DNA of 64,000 nt from Scenedesmus sp. PABB004. Taxonomy: Eukaryota. Below the pieces are notes generated by a model that was not told the origin of the DNA, made no database searches, and saw only the letters and a program-made list of their open reading frames with translations. The position numbers and the translations under genes were made by a program. Shown here piece by piece: positions 1 through 61,736 of the stretch. The stretch is taken from assembly GCA_014905635.1 (NCBI GenBank), contig JABVCE010000013.1, forward strand, positions 620,001 to 684,000. The letters run 5' to 3'. Within the stretch, counting starts at the first letter, position 1. Each line of letters opens with the position of its first letter.

Positions 1-3000
1 GCGGCACGCGCAGCACGCGCGGCGCGTGGCGCGCGCGGCGCGCGCTCACGGCTCCGAGTGCTTGACGCGCGGCGCGGGCCGCTTGCAGCCCTTGAAGACC
101 TTTGGCTGCGGCATGGAGAGCCACGCGGGCGTGTGGTCCTCGAGGAACTGCAGCACCGGGCGGATGACCGGCATGAGCACCGGGTCGACCAGCTTCTTCT
201 CAACCTGTGTGTGTGTGTGGGGGGGGGGGGGGTGGGGGGGGGCAGAGGAGGGAGGGAGGCAGAGGAGGGAGGGAGGCGGAGGAGGGAGGGAGGCGGAGGA
301 GGGAGGGAGGCGCGGCGGGGCGGCGGTGGGCGGTGGGCGCGGGGCGGACGCGAGAGCGGGGGTCGGGCGGGCAGCCTCGGCAGGGGCCGGGCGGGGGTCG
401 GGCTGGCGGCGGCGCGCGGGGCCCGTGCGGGGGCCGCGCGGGGGCGCGCGGGTCGCGGGTCAGATCATCACCTCGACGATGACGTAGACGATGACCATCG
501 ACACGATGGCCCGCGCCCACTGCACGCCGCTCATGCCCTCGCCCATGTGCAGGAAGGAGGAGACGCCGGGCGTGTAGGTCAGGAAGAACTGCAGCGCGAC
601 TGCGGCAAGCAAGGCGGGGGCGGGGCGCGCGGCGGGGCGGGGCGGGGCGCGTTGTGAGTGGGGCGTGAGCGCTCGAGGCTCAGGGGGCGAGAGCCAACCG
701 GCTGGAGCCCCGCAAGGCCGTGCGGCGCCGCGCGGCGCGGCGCGGCGCGGCGCGCACTCGTGACGCCGATGGAGGCGTAGCACCAGGGGTTGCCGCGCAG
801 CGCGCGCGGGTGGAAGGTGGAGGCCTTGATGAACCTGGCGGCGGGGCGGCGGGGTTCAGGGCCCAGGGGCGGGGCGCGGGGTTTAGTAACGAGGCGCTGG
901 CCGTCACGCGGGCCGGCCCGTGGGCAGGGCCGGCGGCGGGCCCCGCTGGCGCCGCGGTCCGGGCGCCGCGCCGCCGCGCGCCGCACCGCGTCGTGACGGC
1001 GTAGCCGATCTCACCAAACACGAGGACGTTGAACGCCTCGGCGCGGCGGCGTGCGAGCGAGAGGCCCTCGGTCGCGCCCCAGTAGAAGCAGCCGAGCACG
1101 AGGATGACGAGCAGGTGCGTCACAAACACGCAGCGCCACAGCACGAGCTTGCCCTGCAGGGCGGAGGGAGGGAGGGCAGAGAGGCGGAGGGAGGGCGGAG
1201 GGAGGGCGGAGGGAGGGCGGAGGGGCAAAGCGGGGCGGCGGTGGTGAGCGGCGGGCGGCCCGCGGCGGGGGCGCGGCGGCCGAGGCAGGGCGCGGCCGGG
1301 GGAGGGAGGGGGCGCGGGCGCGGGCGCGGGCGCGGCGCGCACCAGGAGGCGCTTGCCGGGGCGGCGCGGCGGGCGGTCCATGACGCTCGGCTCGGCCGGC
1401 TCGGCGGCGAGCATGATGCCTGGCGACCGGCGGGCGCGGCGCGGCGCGGCGGAGCGGTGCGCCGGGCGGCGCGGTGGGCCGCGGGCGGCGCGGGCTTGCG
1501 CGGCGCGGGCTCGTGCGGTGCTGGGCGGCGCGGCGCGGCGCGGGCTCGTGCGGCGACGGCGGCGCGGGCGCGTGCGGGGTGCGGCGCGCCGCACCCATGG
1601 TGACCGCTGTGACGAGGTTGACGTAGAGCACCTGCATCGCTGTGAGGGGCATGTCGTGCAGGCCGAACACAAACGCCCAGAAAATGCTCCCGCCCTGGTG
1701 ATGATGGCGCGGACGACGCGACGGACGCGGCGCAGGGACGTCGGACGTGGCGGCGGCGGCGCGGCGGCGCGGCGAGGGTGGGGCCCGCGCGCGGGCGCGG
1801 AGCGGCGGCGCCCGCCCGGGTCCGCGCCTGCGCAAAGTTGACTGGCAGGTTGAACAGCAGGATCTTGCGCAGGTTGTCCCACACGCTGGGGGATGGAGAG
1901 CAAGGGCGGGCGGGCGGGAGGAGAGGAGAGTCAGCACGCGGGGGGCGCAGCGCTGCGGCGCGGGGCCGGCCGTCAGCGCCAGCGGCGCGGGCGCGCGGGC
2001 GCGGGCGCGCGGCGCCGCCGCCGCGTGGGGCGCGGCGGCGCGTGGGGTTTTAGGGGTTTAGCGCACCGGCGTCCCTCCTTGACCGCCATGACGATGGTGC
2101 TGAAGTTGTCGTCCGCCAGCACCATCTTGGCGGCCTCCTTGGACACGTCGGTGCCCGTGATGCCCATCGCGACGCCGATGTCGGCGGCCTGGGGGGGGGG
2201 GGGGGGGAGGGTGTAGCGCGAGGGAGGGCGGCGTGAGCGGGCATGGTGGGCGAAGCGCGCGTGCGCGGCGGGCCAGCGGCGCGCGTGAGAGAGAGAGAGA
2301 GAGGGAGAGGGAGAGGGAGAGGGAGCGCGCGGGCGCGGCCGCACCTTGAGCGCGGGCGCGTCGTTCACGCCGTCGCCGGTCATGGCCACCACGTTGACGC
2401 CGCGCGCCTTGCGCCGCACCGGCTCGCCCTTCTTGTGCGTCGCGTGCGCGCGGTCGGCCTCACCGATGTGGCTGCCGCCGTAGCTGCTGGTCGAGAGCTC
2501 GTCCTCGTCCTTGTCTGCGTGTGTGTTTGTGTGTGTGTGTGGGGGGGGGGGGGGCACACGTGGCGGCGTGAGCGGCCGCGGCGTGGCGCGGCGGCGTGGT
2601 GGGCAGGGGAGTGCGTGGCTGCGGGGGCGCCGCACTCGCTCACCCTCGGCCACCTCGATCGTCACGTCCGCCGAGCGCACGCCGAGGCTGCGGCTCGCGA
2701 GGCTGTCGCCGGGGCTGGCCGCGCGGTCGGCGGCGGGGCGCTCGGCGCGGCGCGCGCCGCTGCCCGGCGCGGGGGACGGCGACGACGCGGCGGCCGCGGT
2801 CGCCGCCTGCGGCACGGGCGGGACGCTCTGCAGCGCGCGCACGATGCGCAGCCTGCGGCGCGGGGCGCGGGGCGCGGGGCGCGGGGTCAGCCGCAGGCCG
2901 CCGCGCGCCGCGGCGGCGCCGGCTGCCAGCGGGCCCACGCGCGTGGGCGCGCGCCCCGCCAGCCCCACCCCGCCCCGTGCCCGCGCCCGGCGCGGCGGGC

Positions 3001-6000
3001 CGCACTTGTTCTCCGGGCTGGCGCGCGCAAAGACATTGACGTTGGGCACCACCTTGCGCAGCGCGTCGTCGTCCATGCCGTCCAGCTCGGGGCCGGTCAT
3101 CACGCTGCCGTTGCCGGCGATGCCCAGCATCTTGCCGATGGCCAGCCCAGTGAGCGCGTGGTCGCCTGCGGCCGGCGGCGCGCGCGCGCGCGGCGGCGCG
3201 ATGCGCGTGGGCGGGCGGGCGGTGCCGGCGGGCGGGCGGCCGCGGCGGGCGCGGGGGCGCGGCGGGCGGCGCGGGCGCGGGCGCGCACCGGTGATCATCT
3301 TGACCACGATGCCGGCGCGGTGCGCGACCTTGACCGCCGCGATCGCCTCCTCGCGCGGCGGGTCCAGGATGGCGAGCAGCGCGACGAGCGTGAGGAAGGG
3401 GTCGGCCTTGCGCGCGAGGATGGCGTCCGCGGTCAGGCCGCTCACGTCCTCGTCCGTGGGGACCTCGGCGCGGCAGAGCGCGAGCACGCGCAGGCCCTGG
3501 CTGCTCAGCTCCTCCTGCGCCGCCGTCCAGAAGGGCAGCGTCAGCGGGACGGACCCGCCCGCGCCGGCGACCGTGGCGAGGCCGTCGTCCGCGAGCTGGC
3601 TGCAGCACATCGGGAACAGGCGGTCCGGCGCGCCCTGCGGCGGTGCGGGCGCGGGCGCGGGCAGCGTGGGCGTTGTGAGGACCGCGGCGCGGCGGCGCGG
3701 CGGCGGGGGTTTGCGACGCGCGCGCCGAGCGGCTCAGGGCCTCGGTGCGGGGGTGTGGGGCGCGGGCGCGGCGGTCCTGCAAGTGGCGGCTGTCCTGCAA
3801 GTGGTCCTGCAAGTGGCGCGCACCTTGACGTAGATGACGCGGCGCCCCGGGTGGCCCGCGCCCTGGGGCGGCTCCACCTGGTGGACCGTCGCCATGAACT
3901 GAACCGCGGCGCGGCGCGGGGCGGCGCGGGGCGTAAGCGTCGGCGTCGGCGGCGGGGCGCGCGCGCCGCGGACGTGCTGGGGCGGCCGGCCGGGTTTGGG
4001 AGGAGGCACGGCGCGCGCGGCGCGGCACAGCGCGCGCGGCGCGGCAGCACACCTTGTGCTCGCTCTCGAACGGCACGCTCGCGACGCGCGGCTTGGCGGC
4101 CTTGAGGGCCGCGGGGTCGAGCCCAGCCTTGAGCGCGCCGGTGATGAGCGCGACCTGGCGCGGTCAGTGGTGTGGCGCGGCGCGGCGCGGTCAGCGGGCA
4201 GCGCTGCGGCAGGGGCCCAGCCGCAGCAGGGGCCCAGCGGCGGCGGGGGCCCGGCGGCTGCAACCCGCGCAGCCCGGAGGGCCAGCGGCGGCGGCCTGGC
4301 GGCCTGGCAGCGCACCTCGGTGGGCGCGCCGTTGGGCGTGAAGACGGGCGCGCCGCCGGGGCCGTCCTCCTTGGTCAGCGCCGAGTCGTTGCACAGGAGC
4401 GCCCCCTCCAGCAGCGCCTTGACCGCGGCGGCGCCCTCCTCGGGCAGCGGCGCGTCGCTGCGGCACGGCACGGCGCGACGCGGCGCGGCGGGGGCGGGCG
4501 GGGTCGGCAAGGCGCGCGGCCGCGCAACGCCCGCCCCGCCGCGGCGCGCGGGGCCGCGCCCGCTCCCGCGCCAGCGGCGGCGGCGGCGCTAGCGGCGGCG
4601 GCGGCGTGGGGTGGGCCCTCTCTCACCCGAGCGTGAAGGCCCCCGTCGGCGCGTAGCCGACGCCACTGACGCGGTAGAGGGCGCCCGCGCTGCGCATCGC
4701 CACGAGCGTCATCTCGTTCTTGGTCAGCGTGCCGGTCTTGTCGCTGCAGATGACGGTCAGGCTGCCCAGCGTCTGCGCGGCGGCACGGCACGCGCGGCGC
4801 GGCAGGTCCTCAGCGCGGGCGCGGAGCGGGCGCGCGCGGCGCGGGGGCGCCGGCAGTCGGCTGCGACCGACAGCAGCCGCGCCGCACCTCCATGCAGGGC
4901 AGCTGGCGCACGATGGCGTTGTTCTTGGCCATGATGGTCGTGCCCATCGCCAGCACGATCGTCACCAGCGCGGGCAGGCCCGCGGGGATCATGGCCACCG
5001 CGATCGCGACCGCCGTCTGCGCGCGCGGCGTGGCCGACGGCGTGTGTTGTGTGGGCGCGCGGGGCCGGCGGAGCGGCGGCAGCGGCGGCCGCGGCGCGGC
5101 GCAGCGCGCGGCGCGGCGCGGCGCGCGCCTGGAACGCGACGCCGGCGTGGTGGTGCGCGTGCAGGAGGGCGAGCAGGAAGGTGGAGAGGCTGATGACGCC
5201 GACGATGATGGCGAGCCAGCGGGCGAGGATCTCCATCTGGATGAGCAGGTTGGTCTTGCCGCTCTGCACCTCGCTGACCATCTTGGAGATCTTGCCAATC
5301 TCGGCGCGGTCGCCTGCGGGGGCAGGGAGGGGAGCAAGAGGGAGAGGAGAGGAGGAGGAAGGGGGCGTGAGCGGCGCGGCGCCCGCACTGGACGCGCGCG
5401 CGCGGCGCGAGCTGCGCCGCGGCGGGCCGGGCCGGGCAGCGCGCCGCCGCACCCGTCTCGACGACGACGCCGAGGCCCTGGCCCGCGGAGACGGCGGTCG
5501 CGCTGTACGCGAGGCACTTGCGGTCGCCGAGGCCCGACGCGGCCGGGACGGGGAGCGTGTTCTTGCTGATCGGCACGCTCTCGCCCGTGAGCATGGCCTC
5601 CTGGATCTGCGGCGCGGCCCGGCCCGGCGCGGCGCGGCGCCCGGCGGGTTTGAACACACGGGCCGCGCCGGGGCAGCGGCGGCGGCGCCCGCACGGGCGG
5701 GCCGGCGCCGCGCCCGCGCCGCCGCGCCGCCGCGCGTGCGCCAGCCAGGCCTGAAGCGTCCCCCTTCCACTCTCTCGCACGCACGACGACAGCACGCGCG
5801 CACCTGCAGGTTGTGTGCCTCGAGCAGGCGCAGGTCGGCGGGGACCTTGTCGCCCGACTTTATGACCACGATGTCGCCCGGCACCAGCCCGTCCGCGTCG
5901 ACCGTCACGCGCTCGCCGCCGCGCACGACCGTCGCGGTGGGCGAGAGCATCGCCTTGATCGCGTCAGCCGCCTGCGCGGCGCGGGGGGCGGTGCGGGGGG

Positions 6001-14074: not shown

Positions 14075-14090
14075 CGCGCCGGGCGCAGGA

Positions 14091-14095
14091 TGTAA
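14091..14095 (+). promoter_or_regulatory. Chlorophyte polyadenylation signal TGTAA for the Pol5/MYBBP1A gene
   Basis: TGTAA 17 nt after the stop codon; UGUAA is the established major poly(A) signal in Chlamydomonas and relatives. Confidence 0.7.
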
Positions 14096-14251
14096 CGCGC
14101 GCGTTCACTGGCTCGGACGTCGTGCCGGCGCGGGTCGAGTTACCCGGCGCGCCAGAGCGCTCAGCGCCTCAGCCCCGGCTCGTCCGCGCCGCGCAGCCGC
14201 CGCGCCGTCACAGCACAGCACATCCGCCGCCTCGCGCCGCGCGCGCTCGCG

Positions 14252-17824
<3,573 letters not shown>

Positions 17825-22963: not shown

Positions 22964-24210
22964 TCAGCTGGCCCTGCTGTCCGCGGCGACGGCCTCCGCG
23001 GCCTTGCCGGCCGCCGCCTCGGGCGCCCCGGCGTCGCCGCCGCCGCCGCCCGCGCCCGCGCCGCTGCTGCCGGCGCCGCTGCTGGTCCCACCGCTGCTGC
23101 CCGCGCCGCTGCTGCCCGCCGCGCGCGCCAGCGCGGCCATGCCCGCGTTGGCGCGCGCGCTCGTGGCCGCCGCCTGCGCGCCCTGCGCATCCGGCGCGCT
23201 CGCCGCCGGCGCCGCTGCGCCCGCCGCCGCGCCCGCCGCCGCCGCGCGCCGCGCCGCGCCGCTGCGCCCGAGCCCCACCGGGCGCCGCGGCCTGCGCGCC
23301 GACGGCCTCGCCCGCGCGCGCGCTGCCCGTGACGCCCTCCATCGCCAGCACCTGAGCGCCGCGCGCGTGCGGCGGCGGCGGCGGCGGCGGCGGCGGGCAC
23401 GTCAGGCGGCAGGCAGGGCGGGCGGGTGGGCCGCGCGGGCCGGCGCGGCGCGGCGGCCACGCGCACCATGGGCGCCAGCGCCTGGCCCCACGGCGTGTTG
23501 AACAGCACGTCCGCCTGGCGCATGATGTAGTCCTGCGAGCGGCGCGCGGGGTCGGCGCGGCCACGCGGCCGGCGCATGCGCGGCCAGCGGGCGGCGCGCG
23601 CGCGCGGCGAGCGCGCGGCGAGCGCCGCGCCGCGCGCCGGCCGCACCGGCAGGCCCTCGCCGACGAGGAGCTGCGCGAGTTCGTGGGCAAAGTGGGTGCA
23701 GTTCATCGAGATGAGCTGGTAGGCCGTCGGCGTGAAGCGCGACGTCGCGAGCTCAGCGACGAGCTCGGCGACCATCTCGCGCGGCACCTCGGTCGTGCTG
23801 CGGCGGCGCGGCGAGCGGCGCGGCGCGTGAGGCGCGGCGCGTGGGCGGCGGCGGTCGGGGCGGCCGGCGCAGGCCAGGGCGGCAGGGCGGTTGCGGCGGC
23901 GGCGCTTGCCCGAGGTCCAGCTTGTGGTGCGGCGTGCCGAACATCGTCGTGCCCGCGCGGGCCTTGCTCACGCCGTAACCGAAGAAGTACTCGTCCGCGC
24001 CGTCGACCACGATGGAGGTGTGCCAGACGCCCTCGATCTGCGCGGCCGCGGCGGCGGCGGCGGCGGCGCGATGAGGCCGCGCGCTGGTCGCCGCGGATGA
24101 GGCCGCGCGCCGCGCCGCGCCGCGCCGCCCACCTGCTGGCCGAGCAGCATCGGGCTGAGGCTGGCCGCCATGCCACGTGTGAGGTCGTAGACCCAGCAGG
24201 AGACGTTCAT
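22964..24210 (-). CDS. DESI1: PPPDE-family desumoylating isopeptidase (DeSI-1-like); 4 introns; 3' end ambiguous (22964 or 22845)
   Basis: [60 protein letters not shown]: catalytic His (HTSI) and Cys (NCxHF). Confidence 0.9.
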
Positions 24211-24572: not shown

Positions 24573-25968
24573 ATGGACCTGTACAATCGCCTGACCGGCC
24601 GCACGGGCTTCAACGCCTCCCCGGCGACGCTGCTCAAGATGACCGACCTGTGCGTTGCGGCGAGCGGGGATGGGACAGCAGTGCGCACGCCTGCCTCCCC
24701 CAGGCGCCCCGCCCAGGCGGCCCGCACGCCTCCAGGCGCAGCAGGGACCAGTACCGCTGCGCCGGCAGCGTCTGCGGCATCGCGCGAGCCGCGCGGCGGC
24801 GCCGCCGCTGCTGCCGCTGCCGCCGCTGCTCTCGCCGCTCACCCCGCCGCCGCCGCCGCCCCGCAGCGACCCCCGCGTCCAGAAGCACCTGAGCAAGGTT
24901 TACGCGACGCTCACGCTCGCGGCGGGCGTGGCGGCGCTCGGCGTCGCGGCAGACCTCGCGCTGCACGTCGGCGGCGTGCTCACCGGCCTCGCCTCGCTCG
25001 TCTCCCTCATATGGCTCGGCTTCACGCCCAGCACGCCCGATACGCTGGTGCGCGGCGGGGGCGGCCCCGCGCGACGGCGGCCCCGGCGCGCGCTCGCCGC
25101 CACCGGCGCCAAGCAGCGCAGTGCGCCGCCGCGCCGTCGACGCGCCGCTGCCGCCGCCATCCAACCCTCCCTCCACCCTCCTCTTGCTCCTCCTGCCTGC
25201 GCGCGCAGAACAAGCGCTACGCGCTGCTCGCGACGTTTGCGTTCTGCCAGGGCACGTCGCTCGGCGGGCTGGTGGGGCTCGCGCTCGCGCTCAACCCCGG
25301 CATCCTCCTCACCGCCTGCCTCGCGACCGTCGCGGTGTTCGGCTGCTTCACGCTCTCAGCGCTCTTCACGCGCCGCAGGCGCGCGCGCGCCGCCGCCGCC
25401 GCGCCGCGCCGCGTGTGCTGCCGCCGCTGCTCCCCAGCTCACCGCCTGCATCTGCCCCCCAAACACCGTACACGCGTGCGCGCGCAGGTCGTACCTCTTC
25501 CTCGGCGGCTGGCTGAGCAGCGCGGTGCTGGGCCTCTTTGTGCTGCGCCTGGGGTCGTGGGTCTTCCGCGGCCTCGGCGGCGTCGCGCTCGACGCGGAGC
25601 TCTACCTCGGACTCCTCGTCTTCAGGTGGCCCCTTTGTGCCGCGCTGCTCTACGCCGCGCTGCTTGCACTGCGCCCCGCCGCCGGCGCCGCCGCGCCCGA
25701 CTCTCTCGCGTGCCGGGCCCGACCTCTCACCCCGCCCCTGCCCCGCCCTCTGCCCCCCTCCCCCCCAAACACACGCAGCGGCTACGTGCTCTTTGACACG
25801 CAGCTCATCGTCGAACGCGCGTCGTCGGCGGGCGACGCCGACCACGTGCGCCACGCTCTCGACCTCTTTGTGGATGCGTACGCCATCCTGACGCGCGTGC
25901 TCGTCGTGCTGCTGCGCAGCCAGGAGAAGCGCGAGCGCGAGGAGGCGCGCCGCAAGCGCCGCGACTGA
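24573..25968 (+). CDS. BI-1: Bax inhibitor-1 (TMBIM6 family); 4 introns
   Basis: VQKHLSKVYATL, FCQGTSLG, FGCFTLSALFTRRRSYLFLGG, ELYLGLLVFSGYVLFDTQLIVERA, DHVRHALDLFVD and a basic C-terminus ending in TGA. Confidence 0.95.
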
Positions 25969-26094: not shown

Positions 26095-30836
<4,742 letters not shown>

Positions 30837-34046: not shown

Positions 34047-35606
34047 ATGTACGGCAGCGCCTTTTCGTCCGCCTCGCGCAACGGCCGCGGCGAGCCCATC
34101 CTGGGCGAGGGCAGCAACCCCATGCAGTCGCTGGACCTGGGCAACAAGCGCGCATCCGTGGCGGGTGCGGGCGCGGCCGTCACGGGCGGAGGCGCCGCCG
34201 CGAGCCGGCCCTGCCGGAGACAGCGCCCCGACGCCGCCCGCCGCGCCGCCGCCGCCGCCCAGACTCGCACGCGGACGGCTTCGACGGCTACGCCAACGGT
34301 GACGGCGGCGCGCGGCGCGCGGGTGCGGCGGCGGCGGTGCCGGCGGCGGCACGGCGCAGCACCACCACGGCGCCCGCTTGCCGACGCGCCCCGCCGCGCG
34401 CGCCCGTCCGCAGACCGGCTGAACAGCTTCAACAGCACGATGTCGGGCCGCCTGTACGACAGCCGCGTCAACCAGCAGGCGCTGCTGGGCCCGCGCCGCC
34501 CGCGGCCGCACAAGATTTGGACCAAGAAGTTCATCAAGGTCCGCCAGCGCCAGCTGCAGCAGCGCCGCGGCCGCGGCGGCCGCGGGCGCCGGCGCCGGCG
34601 GCGGCCGCGGCAACAGCGCAGCACGAAGAGCCCGCCGCCGCGCGCCGCCTCCGCCACAGGTGCTCGTGGTCGGCGACAGCGGCCTGGGCAAGACGACGCT
34701 CGTCAAGACGCTCCTGTCCACGCCCGGCGAGCGCCTGCAGGTACCCACGCGCGCGCGGGGGGGGGGGGGGGGGCGCGGGGGGGGGGCGCTCGCGCCGCCG
34801 CCGCCGCGGTCGCTCACCGCGCGGCCGCGCGCGGCCGGGCGCAGGTGCACGACGGCACCTACACGCCCGCCGACCAGTTTGTCAAGGACCCCGACTCGCT
34901 CTGCTCCACGGTGACGTGGAAGGACGAGGAGGACCGCGTGATCTGGGTGTACCGCATCCAGGCGCGCGCAGCAGCAGCGCGCACAGCACACGCAGCACAC
35001 GCAGCGCAGCACACGCAGCGCCCGCCCGTGCCGCCGCCGGCCGCGCCGCCGGCCGCGCCGCCGAGCGCGCCGCGCCGCGCGGCCGGCCGCGCAGGACACG
35101 CCGGGGTATGGCGACGACCTTGACATCATGAACCACATCACCATGATCACCGGCCACCTCAACGACTGCAACGACAAGTGGCTCGCCATGGAGAGCGCGC
35201 GCGACCGGTGCGCCGCCGACGCGCCGCCCCCGCCCCCGCCCCGCCCCCGCCCCGGCCCCGCCCCGGCCCCGCCCCGCCCCCGCCCCCGCCCCCGCCCCCG
35301 CCCGCCGAGCCGCCGAGCCGCCGCCCCGTCGCGCGGCCGCCCGCCCACGTCGCTCACCTCGCCGCCCGCCCGGCCGCGCGCGCGCGCGCGCGCAGGGCGC
35401 AGGACCTGTCGGAGGTGGAGGACCCGCGCGTGGACGTGTGCCTCTTCTGCGTGCCGCCGCACCGCCTGCGCCCGATCGACATCCGCTACATGCACGAGCT
35501 CGGCAAGGCGGTGCCCATCATCCCCGTCATTACCAAGGCCGACACCATGACCATCCGCGAGGCCCAGAACTACAAGCAGGAGGTCTTCAGCCGCCTGCAG
35601 GTGACG

Positions 35607-35641
<35 letters not shown>

Positions 35642-36794
35642 GGACGCGGCAGCAGCGCCGCGCCGACGCGGCGCCGCTGACGCCGCCCGCCGCGCCGCGC
35701 AGAACCCGTGCGTCGCGGGCGTGCGCGGCAAGATCAACACCTTCCGCTTCGACAAGGAGACCCTGGAGCGCGCGGGCATGGGCGACGCCGCCGGCAGCGC
35801 CACGCCGCCGTTCCTGGTGCGCGCGCGGCGCGCCGGCGCGAGGCGGCGCGGGCCGCCGCCCTGCCGGGGCGCGGCCCCACGCTGGTGCGCGCGCGCCCGC
35901 GCGTGTGCCGTGCGGGGCGCTGCAGGTGATCGCGTCCAACGACATCAACGAGGAGATGAACCAGATGGACGTCCCCGTGTTCTGGCCCGAGCGCCGGTAC
36001 CCCTGGGGCACCGCGCAGGCGTTCAACCCCGACCACAGCGACCTGCTGCACCTGCGGTGCGCGCCCCGCACCGCACCGCACCGCACCGCACCGCACCGCA
36101 CCGCACCGCACCGCACCGCACCGCACCGCACCGCACCGCACCGCACGCCGCGCCGCCGCCCGGGCGCGGCCGGCAGCGCCCGCGCCCACGCAGCCGCCGC
36201 GGCCCGCCCGCTCCGCGGCCGCCGCCGCAGGGCGCTGCTGCTCAAGGAGGCGCTGGAGGACATCTGCAAGGACAAGCGCAACAGGCGCGGCCGACGGGAT
36301 GGGGGGCGCGCCGGCGGCCTGGCAGGCGGCGGCCGGCGCGCGCGCGCGCGGCGGCCGGTGCGCCGCCGCGGCGACGCCCGCGCGCCGCCCGCGTGCGCGC
36401 GCGCAGGTACGAGACGTGGCGGCGCCACCGCCTGGCGGGGCCGCGCTTCGGCACGCGGCTGAAGCGCTTTGCGATCAGCACCGTGCTGCCGGTCGCGGCG
36501 GCGGTCTACGTCGCGCAGCGCGGCGTCGACGTGCAGCAGGTGTGCGCGCCGGCCGCAGCGGCCGCGCCGGTCGCGCCGGGCGCGCCGGCAGCGCGTCACG
36601 CGCGCCGCCGTGCGCCGCCGCAGGTGCGCGACCGGCTGTCCACGCTCAAGGCGAAGCTGCGCCGCGGCGGCAGGCCCGCCGCCGCGGCGCCCGCCGCCGT
36701 GACGGCGGCCCCTGAGCCCGCGCCGCTGCCGGAGCCGGAGCCCGAGCCGGAGCCCGCGCCCGCGGCGCCGCCCGCCAAGAAGGGCTGGTGGTGA
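34047..36794 (+). CDS. Septin (green-algal type, C-terminal hydrophobic helix); about 11 introns; alternative upstream ATG at 33861
   Basis: G1 VLVVGDSGLGKTTLV, G3 DTPGYGD, VDVCLFCVPPHRLRPID, G4 IIPVITKADTMT, septin unique element RRYPWGTAQAFNPDHSDLLHLRALL, and TGA at 36792-36794. Confidence 0.95.
36066..36145. repeat. (CCGCA)16 microsatellite in a septin intron
   Basis: Directly visible perfect pentamer run. Confidence 0.95.
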
Positions 36795-37227: not shown

Positions 37228-39008
37228 ATGGCGGTGCTGCTGCAGCCCGCGGCGTCGTTGAGCGTGGCGCTGGAGCAGCAGCGAGGCGGCGCCGCCGCTG
37301 CTCCGTCGCTGTGGGCGCGTGCGGAGCGGGCTTCCAGGCGCGGCGTGCTCGTGACCCAGCGAGCAGCCGCTTGGTCACGCGGCGCGCCCCGGCCCGCGTG
37401 CGCTCACGCCCGTCACCGGGGTTGACCGGCGCCCGCCCGCCGCCACGCGCAGGCTGTTTTGGGGCTCCGGCATCGCGTGTGCGAGCGTCGCGTGCCTCAT
37501 CTTCAGCCTGTCGGGACTGCAGGTGCGCACGCACCTGCAGAAGACGCCGGCACCGCCGGCGGTGCCGGCGTTGCGGCGCCGGGCTGACGCGCCGCGCCCC
37601 GCCCCGCGCGCCCCGCGCGCAGGTCAAGCTGACGGGCGACCGCGTGCCAGTGCTGCAACTGTGCGTGGTGCGGTCGGGTGTGTCTTTCGCGACCTCCATC
37701 GCCGTCGGCAGCGCCGCGCGCGTCGCGCCGCTCTTCGGGCGGCGCCAGCAAATGCCGCTGCTGCTCGCGCGCGGGCTGCTGGGCTCGGTCGCGATGGCGG
37801 CGAGCTACGTCGCGCTGCTCGCGCTGCCGCTGGGCGACGCCGTGACCATCGCGCAGCTGCGCCCGCCCGCGACGGCGCTGGTGGCGTGGGCGCTGCTCGG
37901 CGAGCCGCTCGGCGCGCGCGGGCTGCTGGGCTGCGCGGTGTCCCTGGCCGGCGTGGTGGTGCTGGCGCACCCGCCGTTCCTGTTTGGCGGCCACGGCCAG
38001 TGGCGCGTGGCCGGCAACCAGCGGCTGGCCGGCACGCTCAGCGGCGTGGCGAGCACGCTGGCGGGGTCGGGCGCCGCGCTCTGCGTGCGGCGCATCGGCA
38101 AGCGCGAGGCCGCGCTCACCGTGGCGCTGTGGTTCCACACCGCCACGGTCGTGCTTATGGCGCCCCTGCTGGCGGCGGGCTGGCCGCAGCCGGCGACGGC
38201 GATGGCGCCGCGCGACTGCGTGCTGCTGGCGGGCATCGCGTGCAGCTCGTTCTGTGCGCAGCTGCTCATGACGCGGGCGGTGCAGCTGGTCGCGGCGGCA
38301 CGGGCAGCCGCTGTGGGCTTCACGGGCGTGCTGTGGAGTCACGCCCTGGGCGCGCTGGTCTTTGGCGAGCACGCCACGCCCGGCACGCTGGCGGGCGGCG
38401 CGCTGCTGTTTGCGGGCGTGCTCCTGGTGGTGGGGCCCGGCACGTCGCCGCCGCCGCCGCCGGTGCAGGCGTGCAGCGGCGGGCCAGGCGGCCCCACGAC
38501 GGCCGGCGCCGCCTCGGCCGCTGGCCGCGCGGGCGACGACGAGCAGCGTGCGCTGCTGTCGTGCCCGCCGCGTCTGCACGCGGTGGTGGAGGTGCACGCG
38601 GAGGCGGACGCGGCGTCGAGCGACGGGGCGGCTGCGTGTGCTGGCGGGCTGGTCAGCGACGCGCCGCAGCGGGAAGAGCCAGGCGCGGCGCCGCTGGTGC
38701 CGTCGGGCGAGCCGCAGCGGCTGACGCCACGGCCGCCGTGGCTGCAGCGCCTGCTCGGGCAGACGGGCGGCGGCAGCGGGGCGGACGCACGCGGCGGCCC
38801 GCTCGTCGCCGCCGGGGATGATGACGCGGCGTGGGCGGCTGAGCCGAGCCTGCCCCTGCTGCGCGGCGGGGGCAGCTTCGGCTCCTGGGCGGGCGCGTGG
38901 CCGTCCTGGAGCTCGCCCGGCGCAGCAGCGCCGTCTGATGACGGCACTGGCGCGCCGGCGGCGGCGGTGCAGCTGCCCCAGGCAGCGCAGCGGCCGGGCG
39001 CCGGCTGA
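37228..39008 (+). CDS. EamA/DMT-superfamily transporter (SLC35G-like); 2 introns; alternative ATG at 37210
   Basis: LIFSLSGLQVKL..LCVVRS, LLLARGLLG..YVALLALPLGDAVTI, WALLGEPL, GVVVLAHPPFLFG, AQLLMTRAVQL and LVFGE; TGA at 39006-39008, TGTAA at 39107. Confidence 0.88.
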
Positions 39009-39564: not shown

Positions 39565-39571
39565 CTCGCGA

Positions 39572-39576
39572 TTTTT
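39572..39576 (+). terminator. RNA polymerase III terminator (T5) of tRNA-Gln
   Basis: TTTTT 7 nt downstream of the tRNA 3' end. Confidence 0.75.
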
Positions 39577-39644
39577 GGGCCCCAAACCGGCCGTTTCGCC
39601 CCTTTTGCCCCCCACACGCGCTGGGGAGGCGTTACACGACCGCC

Positions 39645-43265: not shown

Positions 43266-43313
<48 letters not shown>

Positions 43314-45507
43314 CCAGCAGCAGCAGCAGCGCCCACGCGCGCGTCGCGCCGCGGCGCGCCCGCCCTCACCAGGTGGTGGTGCTGCTTGTCCGTGAGCGCC
43401 CGCAGCGCGTCGCGGTCGGCGCTGGTGAGCTGGTGCTTGTAGCGCTGCACGAAGCACAGCAGCCCCTGGTGCCACACCACCGGCATCGCGCGCGCGTCGC
43501 CCGCAAACGCGACGAAGTGCGCCGCGAGCGCGTCGACCACCTGCGCCGCGCCGGCGGCAGTGTCGGCGGCGCGCGTGCGCGTCGGCCGCCTGCGTCCGCG
43601 CCAGCGCAGCACAGCCGCGACCGCAGCCCCAGCCCCGGCCCAGCCCTCTGCAGCGGCGCTGGCGGGCGCACCCGGTAGGGCAGGGCGTACTTTTTGTCCA
43701 GCAGCACGCGGATGAAGAAGCTGGTCGTGCCCGCGTACTCGAGCTGCGCGAGCCGCAGCAGCGCCGCCGCGCTGTGCAGCACGGGCAGGCTCGAGCGGCG
43801 CAGCACGCTGCTGAAGATGACCGCCTCGCGCAGCGTGCACGTGCGGCTCTGGCACAGCGGCAGCAGCAGGCCCTGCGCGCGGCGGCGGCGGCGGCGGCGG
43901 CGGGCGGCGTCCGCGCCCGCGCCCGCGCGGGCAGGCGCGCAGCGTGCACGGCGCGGCGGCGGCCCGCACGGCGCGACGGCGGCGCGGCGCGGCGCTGCCT
44001 GGCGCGCCTTGTAGAAGGCGCCGGCCTTGTACGTCGCCTTGCGCAGCGCCTGGAAGAGCGCGAGGTGGAGGCGGCGGTGCTCGCCGATGTCGCGGCGCAC
44101 GCGCGGCAGCAGGACGAGCGCGAGGAAGCGCTGCGCGAGGCGGGCGTTGAGGTTTGACACAAACATCTTGGTCGCGACGTACCTGGGGGGAGCAGGCGGG
44201 CGGGAGAGGCCCGGGGGGGGGGGGGGGGGGAAGGAGGAGGAGAGAGTGTGGGCGAGAGTGTGGGCGAGGGTGTGGGCAAGAGCGTGGGCGGGCGTGGGCG
44301 GGCGCGGCCGGCTGCGGCGGCGGCGCCCGGCGCGCACATCGCGTGCGGGGACCAGTGCTCCGGGTCCGTGAGCTGCAGGACCTCCTCCCAGTTGACGAGG
44401 TTGGGTATGATCTTGAAGGCCTTGGGCACCTTGCCGTTGGTGTAGCGCGCCAGCAGCGCGCCCACGCCGCGGTACACCTCCACCACCGCCGCGTCCAGGC
44501 CCTCCGCGCCGCCGGCGCTGCGGCGCACGGGCGCGGCGCCGGGGGCGCGTCGGCCGGGCGCGCGCGCACGCGCGCGATGGCGCGCAGCGGCGAGCCGGCC
44601 GGCGTGCGGCCGCGCCCCGCGCGCACCCGAACTCGTCGCCGCCGGCGGCGCCGGCGGCGCCCGCGCCGGCGCCGGCGCACTCGCCTCCGCCCGGCTGCGG
44701 GTGTGCGAGGCGCGCGAGGATCGCGTCAGCGAGCGTGCGCTGCGCCGCCGCGCCGCTGCCATCGAGCGCGGCGGGCGACATGAACGCCGCCAGCGCGGCC
44801 TCGTCCTCCGGCGCGACGTCGTCGTCGTCGTCGTCGCCGCCCCACACGCTGCCCGCCTCGGTCAGGCCGTCGCCGCCGTCGTCGCCGGCCTCGCTGTCGC
44901 TGTCGGCGTCGAGCCGCTGCAGCGCCGCCGCGATCGCGCCGGCGGGGATCTGGCGGCACCGGCCGGGCGGGCGGGCGGGCGGGCGGCTCGGAGGGCGGCG
45001 GCGCGCTCGCCGCCGCCGTCAGCGCACGGGCGCGTCGCCCCGCGCACCTGCGCCACCGCGCCGGGCCCGCCGTGCTGCGCGTCCAGCTCCTCCGCGTCCA
45101 GCTCCTCCTGCTGCGCGCGCGCCTCGCGCAGGATGCGGGCCGACACATCCTGCGGCACCGCCTGCCGGCGCCGGCGGCAGCGGCGGCGCGCGTGCGCGGT
45201 GGGTCGGCGCCTGGCTGCGGCCGCGCGGCGGGCGGCTTGGTGCGCCGCGGGCCCCACCTCGGCGTCCTCCTCGTCCTCCGTCCGCCGGCGCCGCTTCTCG
45301 GCGCGCGGCTTGGTCTGCGGCGGGCGGCGCGGGCCGCAGTCGCTCGCGCGCCGCGGTTGCTGGCGGCTGTCGCCGCGCGCGGCGCGCCCGCAGCCCGCTG
45401 CCCCACGCGCGGCCGCGCACCCGGACGCCGTAGGAGTTGGGGTCCTCTATCTGCTCCCCCAGGTCCTGTTTGTGCCGCTCCGGGCGCTGCTGGCGTCGTT
45501 TGCCCAT
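43042..45507 (-). CDS. BYSL: Bystin / Enp1 (40S ribosome biogenesis); about 9 introns
   Basis: [87 protein letters not shown] and [15 protein letters not shown]. Confidence 0.96.
43267..43329. repeat. (CAG)n trinucleotide tract in the last bystin intron
   Basis: Directly visible, with one interruption. Confidence 0.9.
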
Positions 45508-54308: not shown

Positions 54309-54358
<50 letters not shown>

Positions 54359-54465
54359 TCACCGCCCGCGCCCGCGCCGCCCAGCCGCAGCGCCGCGCCC
54401 GCCGCGCCCACCGCGACGCCCGCGGCGGCCGCGGCCGCGGCGCCCGCGCCCGCGCCCGCGCCCCG

Positions 54466-54500
<35 letters not shown>

Positions 54501-57333: not shown

Positions 57334-60300
57334 TTACTCCATCGTCGCGGTCGAGCGCACCGGCAGCTCCAGCTCCAGGTGGCTGCACGTGCGCGTGCTC
57401 TGCAGGAAGCTCTCCAGACGCGCCAGCATGTCCTTGAACGCGGGCCTGGCGGCCAGCAGCGCGCGGCACGCGGCCGAGTGAGCGACGCGACGCCGCGCGG
57501 GCCGTGCGGGCGCGGCGCGGCCGACCCTCCAGACGGCGGCACGCGGACACGCCCTGCCCGCCCCGCCCGCCAGCCCGCCGCACCGCGCGGCGGCGTCCTT
57601 GGAGAGGCAGGCGACCAGCAGGTCCTCCAGCACGACCGGCAGCCCGGCGGCGGCTCCAGCGCGGCGTCGCCGCCGACGGCCGCCAGGACCTCGTCGTGCG
57701 TGAGCCCAGCCCACGCGCGGCTGCCTGCGCGCGCGCGGGCGCGGGCGGCGGCGGCGGCGGCGGCGCCGTCAGCGGCAGCCTCCGGCGCTGGCGTGCGCCG
57801 CCGGGGGCCCACCGCGCGTGCGCGCCGCCGGGGCGCGGGGCGCGCCGCCTCACCCGTGAGCATCTCCCACAGGAGCACGCCGAACGCGTACACGTCGCAC
57901 GACGGCGCGAGCACGCCCGTGCGCACGGTCTCGGGCGCCATGTGCGTGCACGTGCCGTAGCGCCCCGGCGCGGTGCGGACGCGGATGTCGGCCGCGCGCG
58001 CGAGACCAAAGTCGGTCACCAGCGCGGTGAAGCCGTGCGGGTTGCCCGCAAACGACGTCAGCAGCACGTTGCCGCCGCTCAGGTCCTGCGGCGGCGGCGG
58101 CGATGTGGCAGGGGCGCCGGCTCCGCGCCCCGGCGCATCGCGCGCGGGCCGCGCGAGCCACGCGGTGCTCGCGGCGCGCGCGGCGCGCGGCGCGGGCGGT
58201 CACCAGGTGCGCCACCCCCTGGCCGTGGATGTAGGCGAGGGCCGAGGCGATCTCGTACGCGGTCAGCGCGACGGTGCGCAGGTGCGTGCCGCCCTGCGTG
58301 GGCTGGCGGCTCGTGCGGAACCAGCCCTTGACCACCGCGTCCTGCGGGGCGGGGCGGGGTGGGGGTGGGGGCACGGCCGCGCGCGTGTGAGTGCGGGCGG
58401 CCGGGCGGCGGGCATCGCGTGGCGTGCGGCGCGTGCGCGTGCGCGTGCGCGTGCGCGTGCGCGTGCGCGTGCGCGTGCGCGTGCGCGTGCGCGTGCGCGT
58501 GCGTGTCGGCCGGGCGGGCGTCGCGCGGTGCGCGGATCGCGGGTGCGCGCGTGGCGGCGTGCCTGCAGCGTGCCCATGCCGCAGTACTCTGACACGATCC
58601 AGCACGTGGGCTTGGCCTTGGCGGGCGCGAGCGCCGCGAGCTGCGGGTCGGGCTTGCCCACGCCCCTGCGCGGCGCCGCGACGCCCGCGGCGCGGCCGGC
58701 GCGGTCAGCGGCGGGCGCGGCGGCGCGCGCGCGGCGCGCGTGCGTGCGGCGCACGGCCCGCCCGCGCGCGGCGCGGCGCGCGGCGCGGCGCATCACGCAC
58801 CACGCGACCGAGCGCAGCACGCCGAGGTGGTGCATGCCCTGCGTCAGCGCGACCTCGATCGGCACGCCCGCCTTGTTCACGCGCACGCTGTCGATGCGCT
58901 CGATGATCTTTGGGCGGCGTGGGCAGGGGGCGGGGCGGGCGCGTTGACGGCAGCGCATCGACAGCGGCAGCAGCGGCGGCGGCGCGGCGCCGCGCGCGCC
59001 CGGCCGCAGCGCGCGCGCCGCACCTTGACCGCCACCTCCTGGCCGTCGAGCACGCCCCGGAACACCTGGGGCGACACGCGGCGCGTCGGCCAGCCGAGGC
59101 GTCGGCCAGCCGCGGCGGACCGCGCGCGGCGCGCCGGCGCGCCGGCGCGTGCGTGCGTGCGGCGGGCCGCGCGCCCGCGCCGCACCTTGCCAAAGCCGCC
59201 GCGGCCGAGCAGCGGGCCGAGGACGAGCTTGGGGATGGGGCAGGGCCCGACGAGGCGCGGGCCGTACGCGAGGCCGCTGTCCTTGGTGAGCGGGCCGGCG
59301 CCGGCGCGCGAGGAGCCGGCGTCGGCGGGCGTGAGGTGCATGAAGAAAAAGTTGCGCCCTGCGTTTGAACCGACAGGGGGGGGGGGGTGAATGAGCGTTT
59401 GAATAGGGAGGGTTGAGGCCGGAGGTTCAAACGCGGGCGCGCGCGCGCGGGCGAGGGCGGCGGGCGCCGCGCGGCGCGCACCCGGCGTGGGGTCGGTCGC
59501 CTCGCGCAGCCAGCTGGGCACGCCAACGCTGAAGGGCTGATACTCGTCCAGCGCGTCGCTCGCGGCGAGGCGGAAGGTCACGTTGAAGCACCGGCCCGCC
59601 GCCGGCGTCCCCGCCGCGCCCTTCACGCCCGTCAGCACCAGCGCCGCCTGCGCCGCCTGCCACGCCTGCGCGGCGCGGCGCGGCGCGGCGCGCGCGGCGG
59701 GCGGTCGGCACCGGCGCAGGCGGCGCGCGGGGCCGCGGGCCGCAGGCAGCGCGCCGCATGCGGCCGCACCGCTGCGGTCATGTCCACGTCCAGCACGTCC
59801 CGCAGAGGCACGCCCGTAAACTCCTGCATGTGGCGGCCCTCGTCCAGCTTGGCGAGCTCGTCGTACGATGCGCGCCACTCGGTGCCTGCACGGCGGGGCG
59901 GGCGCGCGCTGAGCGCGGGCGGCGCGCGCGCGCGGGCGGGCGGGCGGGCGCCGCCCCGGGACCGGGGCCGGCGCCGCCCCCGCCGCCGCGGCCACGCCCG
60001 CCGCGACCGCACCCTGGCCGCCGCCTCTGCCGTCTGCGCCGGGCGCGTCGCTGCCGCCTGCTGCTGCCTCGGCTGCCTCGCTGCCCGGCGGCGCGGCGCG
60101 CGCGGACGCACCCAGCAGCTCCACCGCGGGGGCGTTGAGGTGCAGGAGGCGCCAGTCGCTGACGTTGCTCGCATCGATGAAGCCGACAGCGCTGGTGTAG
60201 CACTCGGTGCTGCGCAGCAGCTTGCTGCCCTGCGGCGGCGACGGCGGGCGGGCAGGCGCGGCTGAGGGCCCGTCCACGGCGGCGGCGCAGCGCGGGCCGG

Positions 60301-61736
60301 CGCGGCGCGCGCGGTGCGGCGCAGCGCGGTGCGCGCCTGCAGCTTGGCGGCGTCCTGCGTCGCCCAGCGGCGCTCGATCTGGCGCACGAGCAGCTCGCTG
60401 AGGTTGGCGAGGATCGCGCCGCGCGTCGCGTCAAACTTGCGGGGCTGCTGCCCCATGATGCAGCTGCGGCGCGGCGCAGCGGCGGCGGCGGCGGGACGGC
60501 GCACCAGTGGGTGTGCCGGCGAGAGAGAAGGGCAAGAGACAAGGGCCCCGCCGCGCGCCGCACTGCCCGGCGCTCACAGCGTGCCGATGCGGTGCCCGTT
60601 GCTGCTGATGAGGGGCGCCATCACGTAGAACACGAGGCGGAAGCTCTCGCTCACGACAAAGAAGTTCTCACTGAACCTGCGGGTGTGTGTGCGTGTGGGG
60701 GTGGTGTGGGGGCGGCGGCGTGGGCGGGCGACGACGACGGCGCGCGCCGCCAGACCACGCTCGGCCGCACGCGCCGCCCCGCGGCCGCGCCCTCCCCGGT
60801 GCCGCACCGCGCGTCCTCCTCCATGTTCTCCACCACGTTGAGCTCGTGGTTGGGGTTGAGGAACGACCAGCTGCACGGCGGCGGCGGCGGCGGCGGCGGG
60901 GCAGCGGCGGCGGCGGCGGCGCGGGTCGGCTGTGCACCGGCAGGCCCCCGGCGCGCGCGGCCGCGCGGCCGCCGCGCGGCTGCGCGGGAATGCCCCCAGC
61001 CGCAGGCCCGCGCACCCGCAGAAGCCCCAGCGGTCGGGGCAGACGCAGACGGGCAGCGCGCCGCACGCGCCGACCAGGTAGATGCGCTCGCCGGTGAGCA
61101 GCGACACGGTCGCGGTCTCGACGTCAAACACCTTGCACAGCAGCCGCAGCGTCGACTCTGCGCGGCGCCGTCCGCGGCGCGCGCGGGCGCGGGTCGGGGG
61201 GGGGGGGGGGGGGGCGCCGCAGACGGGCGCGGCCGCCGCCGCCCGCCGCCCCGGCGCAGCCACGCCGCGCCGCGCGGCGCACCGAGCTCGCCGTCGCGCA
61301 GCTCGAGCGCGCGGTGCACGCCCTGCGCGGTCGCGAAGCGCTCCTTGAAGCAGGGCGGGTTGGGGCAGCCGAGCGCGTAGCCGTCGTGGGGCTTGAAGTA
61401 GGTGAGGGAGCTCGTGCCGCTCGCGCGCGTCGCTGCGCTGCCCGTCTCGCTCGAGCGCGGCGAGCCGGCGCTGCCGTGCGCATCGCTGCGCGGCGTGCCC
61501 GGGGCGGCGACGCCGTCGTGCACGGGCGCGGTCTGGCTGGCGCTGGGGCCGGCGCTGGTGGCGTGGGAGGCGTGGGACGGCGCCGGAGGCGCGTCGCCGC
61601 CAACGGCGCCGAGCGCTGCGTCCAGCGCCTCCAGGCCGGCCGCGAGCGACGCGGCGCGGCGCTCCTGCTCCGCTGGGGAGTCCTTGGAGCCCCCGGACGA
61701 GGAGACGACGATGCACGTCGCGGTGGGTGCCTCCAT
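57334..61736 (-). CDS. GAF-domain sensor fused to a TKL-like Ser/Thr protein kinase; about 15 introns; apparent 1-nt frameshift near 57643
   Basis: GAF: LLCKVFDVETATVSL..RWGFC..VVENMEEDARFSEN..FYVMAPLISSNGHRIGTLCIM..PRKF. Kinase: LGRGGFGKVFRG, VAVK, EYC..GTL, HLDLSGGNVLL, DFGLAR, GTCTHMAPE, DVYAFGVLLWEM. TAA at 57334-57336. Confidence 0.9.
58433..58504. repeat. (GTGCGC)n hexamer tract in a kinase intron
   Basis: About 12 perfect units visible. Confidence 0.9.

What the first reader, a model, noticed from the sequence alone, without database searches (positions are those of the whole stretch)
1827..60336. Exceptionally frequent GC-AG introns (at least 15, about 12% of roughly 120 modelled introns)
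Protein continuity calls for GC donors at 1827 and 5128 (ATPase), 17174 and 17405 (LysRS), 23909 (DeSI), 25379 (BI-1), 28514, 29396 and 29927 (CYP97B), 34962 and 36285 (septin), 37338 (EamA), 44007 (bystin), and 58562 and 60336 (kinase). Most fall inside conserved motifs (YRIQ|DTPG, HILK|ENAF, AFYK|GLL, GTLQ|DAV); 37338 and 60336 are less constrained. Fourteen of 15 follow an exonic AG, and most read AG|GCGCG, a +2 T-to-C version of the locally dominant GTGCG donor rather than the strong GCAAG usual for GC-AG introns. GC-AG introns are normally about 1% in eukaryotes. Inference: relaxed or altered 5' splice-site recognition under extreme GC pressure, which default gene finders would mis-model.
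Basis: partly seen in the sequence, partly recalled or inferred. Interest (0 to 1): 0.72.

Follow-up and report, generated by a model that had tools for sequence, protein, structure and literature searches.

The report
Frequent GC-AG introns in GC-rich alga
About one intron in eight in this stretch of an extremely GC-rich green alga starts with GC instead of the usual GT, which is real but is the expected, already described consequence of extreme GC content rather than a new kind of splicing.

Summary
The window (about 80% GC) is nuclear DNA of a scenedesmacean green alga. It encodes, letter for letter, the deposited CYP97B2 protein of Scenedesmus sp. PABB004.

Of the 15 proposed GC donors:
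- 12 are supported by protein homology (spliced alignment to homologs, Pfam or PDB continuity across the junction).
- 2 (BI-1 25379, septin 36285) have partial homology plus an ab initio model.
- 1 (EamA 37338) is unresolved, with a same-phase GT at 37311.

No RNA evidence could be obtained.

In four genes modelled by homology, 9 of 54 resolved introns are GC-AG.

The GC donors are ordinary U2-type sites with compensation. The exon ends in AG at 14 of 15. None is in phase 1, where AG would need a rare A-ending codon. Their flanking context scores above that of GT donors.

T at +2 is still about 30-fold over-represented against intron composition, so recognition need not be relaxed; composition alone accounts for the share.

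The same effect is published for Emiliania huxleyi (56%) and pelagophytes (14-17%). The public annotation already uses three of these sites.

Verdict: real, a new instance of a known kind, of modest interest.

The parts
1695..1827 (-). P-type ATPase intron, GC-AG, 133 nt, phase 0 (cag|GCGCGG)
   Evidence: Chosen with 10 of 10 homologs. The same-phase GT at 1842 would delete 5 conserved residues and has a poor context score of -6.7.
5017..5128 (-). P-type ATPase intron, GC-AG, 112 nt, phase 0 (cag|GCGCGC)
   Evidence: Chosen with 8 of 10 homologs; the other two picked GC sites at 5137 and 5080. Pfam E1-E2_ATPase profile runs 93-144 in the upstream exon and 151-181 in the next. The GT at 5140 has a context score of -12.5.
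17014..17174 (-). Lysyl-tRNA synthetase intron, GC-AG, 161 nt, phase 2 (cag|GCACGC)
   Evidence: Chosen with 6 of 6 homologs. A GT-only alignment inserts about 30 residues of Ala/Arg-rich sequence.
17231..17405 (-). Lysyl-tRNA synthetase intron, GC-AG, 175 nt, phase 0 (aag|GCGCGT)
   Evidence: Chosen with 6 of 6 homologs. A GT-only alignment inserts about 17 residues. There is no same-phase GT within 60 nt.
23798..23909 (-). DeSI/PPPDE peptidase intron, GC-AG, 112 nt, phase 2 (cgg|GCAAGC)
   Evidence: Pfam Peptidase_C97 profile 30-76 ends the upstream exon and 79-127 starts the next. In the ab initio parse, with a margin of 8.1.
25379..25487 (+). Bax inhibitor-1 intron, GC-AG, 109 nt, phase 2 (cag|GCGCGC); partial support
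   Evidence: The upstream exon matches Bax1-I profile 70-119 up to its last residue. The downstream exon has no Pfam or PDB match. In the ab initio parse, with a margin of 5.1.
28318..28514 (-). CYP97B intron, GC-AG, 197 nt, phase 0 (aag|GCGCGG)
   Evidence: The spliced product equals the deposited CYP97B2 protein P0121.
29216..29396 (-). CYP97B intron, GC-AG, 181 nt, phase 2 (cag|GCAAGG)
   Evidence: The spliced product equals the deposited CYP97B2 protein P0121.
29758..29927 (-). CYP97B intron, GC-AG, 170 nt, phase 0 (aag|GCGCGC)
   Evidence: The spliced product equals the deposited CYP97B2 protein P0121.
34962..35094 (+). Septin intron, GC-AG, 133 nt, phase 0 (cag|GCGCGC), just before the DTPG motif
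   Evidence: The upstream exon aligns to 5irr_A residues 56-94 and the next exon to 95-127.
36285..36406 (+). Septin intron, GC-AG, 122 nt, phase 2 (cag|GCGCGG); partial support
   Evidence: The upstream exon aligns to 5irr_A residues 281-297 (E 0.21). The downstream exon has no match. There is no same-phase GT within 60 nt. Ab initio margin 6.1.
37338..37452 (+). Proposed first intron of the EamA transporter gene, GC-AG, 115 nt, phase 2; unresolved
   Evidence: The N-terminal exon has no homology. The same acceptor can be reached in phase from GT 37311 or GC 37281, with similar combined scores. My parser prefers 37281.
43873..44007 (-). Bystin intron, GC-AG, 135 nt, phase 0 (aag|GCGCGC)
   Evidence: Pfam Bystin profile 92-149 fills the upstream exon and 150-216 fills the next, end to end.
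58342..58562 (-). Protein kinase gene intron (Pfam Pkinase and PK_Tyr_Ser-Thr matches), GC-AG, 221 nt, phase 0 (cag|GCACGC)
   Evidence: Chosen with 4 of 5 homologs; the fifth alignment breaks off upstream of the site. A GT-only alignment uses 58595 and deletes 11 residues.
60230..60336 (-). Protein kinase gene intron (same gene as 58562), GC-AG, 107 nt, phase 0 (cag|GCGCGC)
   Evidence: Chosen with 5 of 5 homologs, with an ungapped alignment across the junction.

Best explanation
These are ordinary U2-type GC-AG introns. They have become common because the genome's very strong bias towards G and C keeps turning the T at donor position +2 into C.

The change survives only in donors whose other positions still pair well with U1 snRNA. 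Those donors have an exon ending in (C/A)AG, G at +5, and often A or G at +3.

Because third codon positions are about 95% G or C, an exon can end in AG only in phase 0 (NAG codons) or phase 2 (AG|N codons). GC donors are therefore confined to those phases.

Shown here: the sites, the junctions by homology, the context bias and the phase bias. Inferred: removal by the normal spliceosome, U1 pairing as the reason for the context bias, and mutation pressure as the driver.
For: - Junctions: 12 of 15 are supported by homology.
- Control: among the 15 alternative donor dinucleotides, GC gave the largest score gain in 4 of 4 runs.
- Ab initio model: my homology-free model, tested leaving one gene out, recovered 9 of 9 verified GC introns exactly and 49-51 of all 56 introns.
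- Exon-end AG: 14 of 15 GC donors against 14 of 45 GT donors (Fisher p 3.5e-5). For the 9 GC donors of the four fully aligned genes it is 9 of 9 (p 1.5e-4).
- Exon-end AG within phase 2: 5 of 6 GC donors against 0 of 12 GT donors.
- Phase 1: 0 of 15 GC donors against 17 of 45 GT donors (p 0.006). A at third codon positions is 1.3%.
- +3 A: 4 of 15 GC donors against 0 of 45 GT donors (p 0.003).
- Context score without +1 and +2: 2.7-7.0 for the 15 GC sites; 3.3 +/- 1.5 for GT donors. Only 0.5% of all GC dinucleotides reach 4.
- Composition: intron C:T is 5.9, against 9:45 at +2.
- Precedents that blame high GC content: PMC4028052 and bioRxiv 10.1101/2024.10.30.620910 (passages read).
Against: - No RNA evidence: no RNA run was listed and no genome was held, so splicing at these exact bases is inferred from proteins only.
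- The context matrix was trained with the 9 verified GC donors included, which flatters those nine. The other six were not in the training set.
- The overall AG contrast is partly a phase effect. Phase-0 GT donors also end in AG in 13 of 16 cases.
- The four genes used for the 9 of 54 share were chosen because they carry GC sites, so that share is biased upwards.
- The window-wide denominator comes from a rough model of my own, which gave 9-16 false introns per 56 true ones in the leave-one-gene-out test.
- The comparison with ordinary genomes uses intron compositions recalled from memory.
Confidence: 0.8

Rival explanations
1. The splicing machinery itself has changed. On this reading the U1 5' end, the U6 ACAGAG box or U5 loop 1 has been altered, so that GC donors, and the local GUGCG consensus, are read as well as GU donors.
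For: - The share is about ten times that usual for eukaryotes (PMC7072748 gives GT-AG at 97.9-98.7%).
- The dominant GT donor is GTGCG (+3 G at 45 of 45, +4 C at 33 of 45). That is far from GTAAG.
Against: - T at +2 is still about 30-fold enriched over intron composition.
- GC donors need extra conventional U1-type context: (C/A)AG before the junction and +3 A. Native reading of GC would not require that.
- No snRNA gene could be inspected: Rfam finds only two tRNAs in the window and no genome was held.
Confidence: 0.08
2. It is an artefact. Either the assembly has T-to-C errors at some GT donors, or the true donors are nearby GT sites and the homology-based junctions are slightly misplaced.
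For: - There are no reads or transcripts to check against.
- Same-phase GT sites lie within 60 nt of 13 of the 15 donors.
- EamA 37338 has a credible GT alternative at 37311.
Against: - If these were GT donors with a wrong base, their flanks should look like those of GT donors. Instead they differ in exon-end AG, in phase and in +3 A.
- The same-phase GT alternatives score -13.1 to 0.5. The lowest true GT donor scores 0.4 and the mean is 3.3. They would also delete 4-19 or insert 10-20 residues in conserved blocks.
- Restricting to GT costs 41-112 score units per gene.
- An independent public gene model uses three of the sites.
Confidence: 0.07
3. The GC donors are kept by selection as weak, regulated splice sites, for intron retention or alternative 5' site choice in particular genes. 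On this reading they are not a passive result of composition.
For: - Papers held in the library propose regulatory roles for GC-AG introns (PMC7242645, seen in a search listing only).
- PMC4028052 links non-canonical splicing to intron retention in E. huxleyi (passage read).
- Five sites have a same-phase GT 4-9 codons upstream.
Against: - The sites are spread over nine unrelated housekeeping-type genes.
- Their share is what composition predicts.
- Nothing here measures usage.
Confidence: 0.05

Closest known systems
GC-AG prevalence in the haptophyte Emiliania huxleyi (PMC4028052, BMC Genomics 2014; passages read)
   Same: - A GC-rich algal nuclear genome with many GC donors and fully canonical AG acceptors.
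- The authors attribute the shift to high genomic GC content.
- They note that ab initio gene models mis-predict such junctions.
   Different: - A different lineage (haptophyte against chlorophycean green alga).
- A far higher share there (135 of 241 junctions, 56%) at a lower genomic GC content (65%).
- Nine GC junctions there were verified by RT-PCR; here there is no RNA evidence.
GC-AG introns of pelagophytes Aureococcus anophagefferens and Pelagomonas calceolata (bioRxiv 10.1101/2024.10.30.620910; one passage read)
   Same: - A predicted GC-AG share of about 14-17%, close to the roughly 12% here.
- The share is explicitly attributed to high genomic GC content.
- A low-GC relative there has 0.32%.
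   Different: - Stramenopiles with few introns per gene.
- Their shares come from whole-genome annotations; mine comes from one 64 kb window.
Ordinary U2-type GC-AG introns of plants, animals and fungi (Frey and Pucker 2020, PMC7072748; passages read)
   Same: - The same dinucleotides and the same AG acceptor.
- The donor context is stronger than average. That compensation is a textbook feature I recall, not one read in this paper.
- The paper reports a positive correlation between genomic GC content and the GC content of splice sites.
   Different: - The frequency there is about 1% or less, against about 12% here.
- The usual strong form is GCAAG; here 11 of 15 are GCGCG, which mirrors the local GTGCG donor.

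Membership tests
U2-type GC-AG spliceosomal introns | GC at intron positions +1 and +2, and AG at the 3' end | tested here: met
   All 15 sites have GC at the donor and AG at the acceptor.
U2-type GC-AG spliceosomal introns | Removing the intron restores a continuous, conserved reading frame | tested here: met
   Met for 12 of 15 by homolog, Pfam or PDB continuity. Partial for 25379 and 36285. Unresolved for 37338.
U2-type GC-AG spliceosomal introns | The remaining donor positions are closer to the consensus than in GT donors (compensation) | tested here: met
   Exon-end AG at 14 of 15 against 14 of 45. +3 A at 4 of 15 against 0 of 45. Context score 2.7-7.0 against a mean of 3.3.
U2-type GC-AG spliceosomal introns | No U12-type donor box (ATCCTT-like sequence after the first two bases) | tested here: met
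   The donors read GCGCG, GCACG or GCAAG. None has a U12-like box. The motif itself is recalled.
U2-type GC-AG spliceosomal introns | The spliced junction is observed in transcripts | not testable with these tools
   No RNA run was listed and no genome was held.
Composition-driven GC-AG enrichment of GC-rich algal genomes (E. huxleyi and pelagophyte type) | Very high nuclear GC content | tested here: met
   The window is 77-84% GC in 4 kb bins. The matching assembly is listed at 78.5% GC (PMC12571836, table passage read).
Composition-driven GC-AG enrichment of GC-rich algal genomes (E. huxleyi and pelagophyte type) | GC-AG share an order of magnitude above about 1%, with the acceptor still AG | tested here: met
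   9 of 54 introns in four genes, and about 15 of about 121 in the window; p against 1% is 2e-12. This covers one window, not the genome.
Composition-driven GC-AG enrichment of GC-rich algal genomes (E. huxleyi and pelagophyte type) | Lower-GC relatives have GT at the same introns or a much lower share | not testable with these tools
   No genomic DNA of relatives could be reached. Two metagenome scans gave no orthologous loci.

The most novel reading that the evidence does not exclude
The spliceosome of this alga has co-evolved with its roughly 79% GC genome. Changed donor-binding sequences in U1, U6 or U5 would then read both the local GUGCG consensus and GC donors natively. The exon-end AG rule and the phase restriction would be secondary effects.
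Probability: 0.08. Interest if true: 0.65.

Novelty: new member of a known kind. Interest (0 to 1): 0.33.

Why it matters
At about 79% GC this is among the most GC-rich nuclear genomes on record. That makes it a useful extreme case for asking how far mutation pressure can push a near-invariant splice signal.

The data here suggest it cannot push far. T at +2 is still strongly protected, and GC is tolerated only where the rest of the donor is strong. Codon usage then confines GC donors to intron phases 0 and 2.

In practice, gene models for this alga and similar ones need GC donors enabled, or roughly one intron in eight will be misplaced. Conceptually nothing new is required: the effect was described for haptophytes in 2014 and for pelagophytes in 2024.

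Tried and rejected
- Whole genome of the window: none is held. So there was no genome-wide census and no search for U1, U5 or U6.
- RNA runs: none was listed.
- Rfam on the window: only two tRNAs, no snRNA.
- Pfam on whole stop-to-stop ORFs: this named the genes, but the exons are too short for junction work.
- Homolog search with a CYP97B ORF: it was swamped by low-complexity words and returned only the deposited protein.
- First whole-window run of my ab initio parser: it chained almost everything into giant genes, with dozens of spurious GC donors. I rejected it and used the parser only within gene spans, with leave-one-gene-out testing and a strand filter.
- Ab initio errors: even so, it miscalled some sites, such as 60729 and 30806.
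- Metagenome scans for relatives' genomic DNA, to compare orthologous donors: the first confirmed nothing; the second returned 80 generic kinase loci at 50% identity or less and no orthologs.
- PDB searches with the downstream exons of septin 36285 and BI-1 25379: no match.
- Earlier notes of this scan: none on this genome. The word search gave only Ostreococcus and shifted-donor notes, which did not bear on this finding.
- Extra GC picks by single homologs (for example 15448, 4632, 5797): rejected, because a canonical GTG donor lies 4-6 nt away and the choice varied between homologs.
Full report
**What the window is.** The window is 77-84% GC in every 4 kb bin. The best LysRS relatives are from Tetradesmus, Scenedesmus and the volvocine algae. 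A search with a P450 ORF returned one protein, labelled CYP97B2 of Scenedesmus sp. PABB004. The window encodes 648 of its 650 residues at 100% identity. A comparative paper lists that assembly at 39.8 Mb, 78.5% GC and 7,092 genes (PMC12571836, table passage read). No whole genome was held for the window.

**Method.** Stop codons are so rare here that ORFs say little. I therefore wrote a protein-to-genome spliced aligner: BLOSUM62, affine gaps, three intron phases, AG acceptors and a chosen set of donor dinucleotides. I also wrote a small generalised hidden Markov gene parser that uses no homology. It combines a three-periodic second-order coding model with donor and acceptor matrices.

**The 15 sites, by homology.**
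- All 15 have GC at +1 and +2.
- LysRS 17405 and 17174 are chosen with 6 of 6 homologs.
  - Allowing only GT lowers the score by 63-112 units.
  - It also forces about 17 and about 30 residues of Ala/Arg-rich insertion into a block that is otherwise ungapped.
- Kinase 60336 is chosen with 5 of 5 homologs.
- Kinase 58562 is chosen with 4 of 5; the fifth alignment breaks off upstream of the site. Both kinase junctions are ungapped, and GT-only costs 41-110 units.
- ATPase 1827 is chosen with 10 of 10 homologs.
- ATPase 5128 is chosen with 8 of 10. The other two took GC sites at 5137 and 5080.
- For the ATPase, GT-only costs 42-59 units. It uses GT 1842 and 5140, which delete 5 and 4 conserved residues.
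- CYP97B 29927, 29396 and 28514 are exactly the junctions that give the deposited protein.
- Bystin 44007: the upstream exon fills Pfam profile positions 92-149 and the next exon fills 150-216.
- DeSI 23909: profile 30-76, then 79-127, across a split codon.
- Septin 34962: the upstream exon matches chain 5irr_A residues 56-94 and the next exon 95-127.

That makes 12 sites with homology across the junction.

**The three weaker sites.**
- BI-1 25379: the upstream exon matches the Bax1-I profile to its last residue, but the downstream exon matches nothing on its own.
- Septin 36285: the upstream exon matches 5irr_A residues 281-297, and the downstream exon lies beyond the solved construct. There is no same-phase GT within 60 nt.
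- EamA 37338: this closes an N-terminal exon without homology. GT 37311 and GC 37281 reach the same acceptor in phase with similar combined scores, so it stays open.

**Controls.**
- I replaced GC by each of the other 14 dinucleotides as the second permitted donor. GC gave the largest gain in 4 of 4 runs. The others only rescued part of the gain from positions one to three codons away.
- Trained on three genes and tested on the fourth, the homology-free parser recovered 49-51 of 56 introns exactly, and 9 of 9 verified GC introns. It made 9-16 false calls, 2-5 of them GC.
- Within gene spans, 14 of the 15 sites are in its best parse. Banning a site costs 5-15 nats and usually brings in another GC, not a GT.

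**How frequent.**
- Four genes have 56 introns. I dropped two ambiguous ones (LysRS near 15450 and ATPase 2824). Of the remaining 54, 45 are GT and 9 are GC: 17%, with a 95% interval of 8-29%. These genes were flagged because they carry GC sites, so this share is biased upwards.
- Over the whole window, the parser with a strand and coding filter keeps 136 of 329 predicted introns: 106 GT and 30 GC.
The other 16 have donor scores from -4.5 to 3.4, and only one follows AG. Several split a long open exon.
The denominator is rough.

**What kind of donors these are.**
- GT donors (n = 45): +3 is G in 45, +4 is C in 33, +5 is G in 42, and -1 is G in 41.
- GC donors (n = 15): +5 is G in all, +4 is C in 13, and +3 is G in 11 and A in 4 (against A in 0 of 45; p 0.003).
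- GC donors at the exon end: -3 is C or A in all, and the exon ends in AG at 14 of 15.
- AG before GT donors depends on phase: 13 of 16 in phase 0, 1 of 17 in phase 1 and 0 of 12 in phase 2. Yet 5 of the 6 phase-2 GC donors follow AG.
- There is no phase-1 GC donor (0 of 15 against 17 of 45; p 0.006).
- The verified exons have GC3 of 95.5% and A at the third position in 1.3% of codons. In phase 1 an exon-end AG would therefore need a nearly forbidden codon. I read this as the reason for the gap.
- The donor context score without +1 and +2 is 2.7-7.0 for the GC sites. It is 3.3 +/- 1.5 for GT donors. Only 0.5% of all GC dinucleotides reach 4. The matrix had seen nine of the GC sites.
- Same-phase GT sites within 60 nt score -13.1 to 0.5.

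These biases also argue against base-calling error. Miscalled GT donors would look like GT donors.

**Why so many.** The interior of verified introns has a C:T ratio of 5.9. At +2 the ratio is 9:45, so T is still favoured about 30-fold (scaled selection about 3.4). With the intron C:T ratio of 0.4-0.7 that I recall for ordinary plants and animals, the same selection would give about 1-2% GC-AG, which is the usual figure (PMC7072748: GT-AG at 97.9-98.7%, passages read). Composition alone therefore accounts for the excess. Relaxed recognition is not needed, though the snRNAs could not be inspected.

**What is known.**
- E. huxleyi (65% GC) has 135 GC-AG among 241 mapped junctions, nine of them confirmed by RT-PCR. 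The authors blame the GC content and note mis-predicted ab initio models (PMC4028052, passages read).
- Aureococcus and Pelagomonas are predicted at 14-17% GC-AG, against 0.32% in a lower-GC relative (bioRxiv 10.1101/2024.10.30.620910, one passage read).
- My searches for GC-AG together with Scenedesmus found only two unrelated papers.
- My search for GC-AG with Chlorophyta and GC-rich found only one unrelated paper.
- So I saw no description for this lineage in the held library. The genome paper of the strain itself was not among the 15 papers that mention the strain name, and I did not read it.

**Verdict.** The phenomenon is a further instance of a published one. The phase restriction through codon usage is a small addition worth testing genome-wide.

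Noticed in passing
window 32039-33440 and 38332-39733: A 1402-nt inverted repeat, 99% complementary, brackets the septin and EamA genes. Each arm carries a tRNA-Gln(CTG) gene (32207-32279 on the minus strand, 39493-39565 on the plus strand). The right arm overlaps the 3' part of the EamA coding region. It could be a real inverted duplication or an assembly artefact.
   Followed up: partly
window about 28790-29050 (minus strand, inside the 469-nt CYP97B intron): A long dinucleotide microsatellite. It reads as a Cys-Val repeat in all three frames of the translation.
   Followed up: no
window 51080-55303 (+): A 1408-codon open frame with GC by codon position of 0.87, 0.72 and 0.97. It looks like a very long exon with few or no introns, unlike the neighbouring genes with about 150-nt exons.
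   Followed up: no
LysRS gene 14260-17800 (-) and kinase gene 57300-61900 (-): The protein searches returned no protein labelled with this strain for either gene, although its CYP97B2 was found. Only 7,092 genes are listed for the assembly, against 13,000-17,000 in relatives (PMC12571836). The public gene set may therefore be incomplete or have merged models.
   Followed up: no
window 24056-24129 (-): ARAGORN calls a tRNA-Met inside the first DeSI intron. Rfam does not report it at the gathering score. It is probably a false call in GC-rich sequence.
   Followed up: no
LysRS and kinase genes, about 40 kb apart in the window: Their Tetradesmus obliquus homologs carry nearby locus tags (OEZ86_001682 and OEZ86_001662) on one 5.9 Mb contig. 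This suggests conserved linkage.
   Followed up: no
window about 36060-36150 (+), septin intron: A short tandem repeat that reads as a repeated five-residue unit in translation.
   Followed up: no
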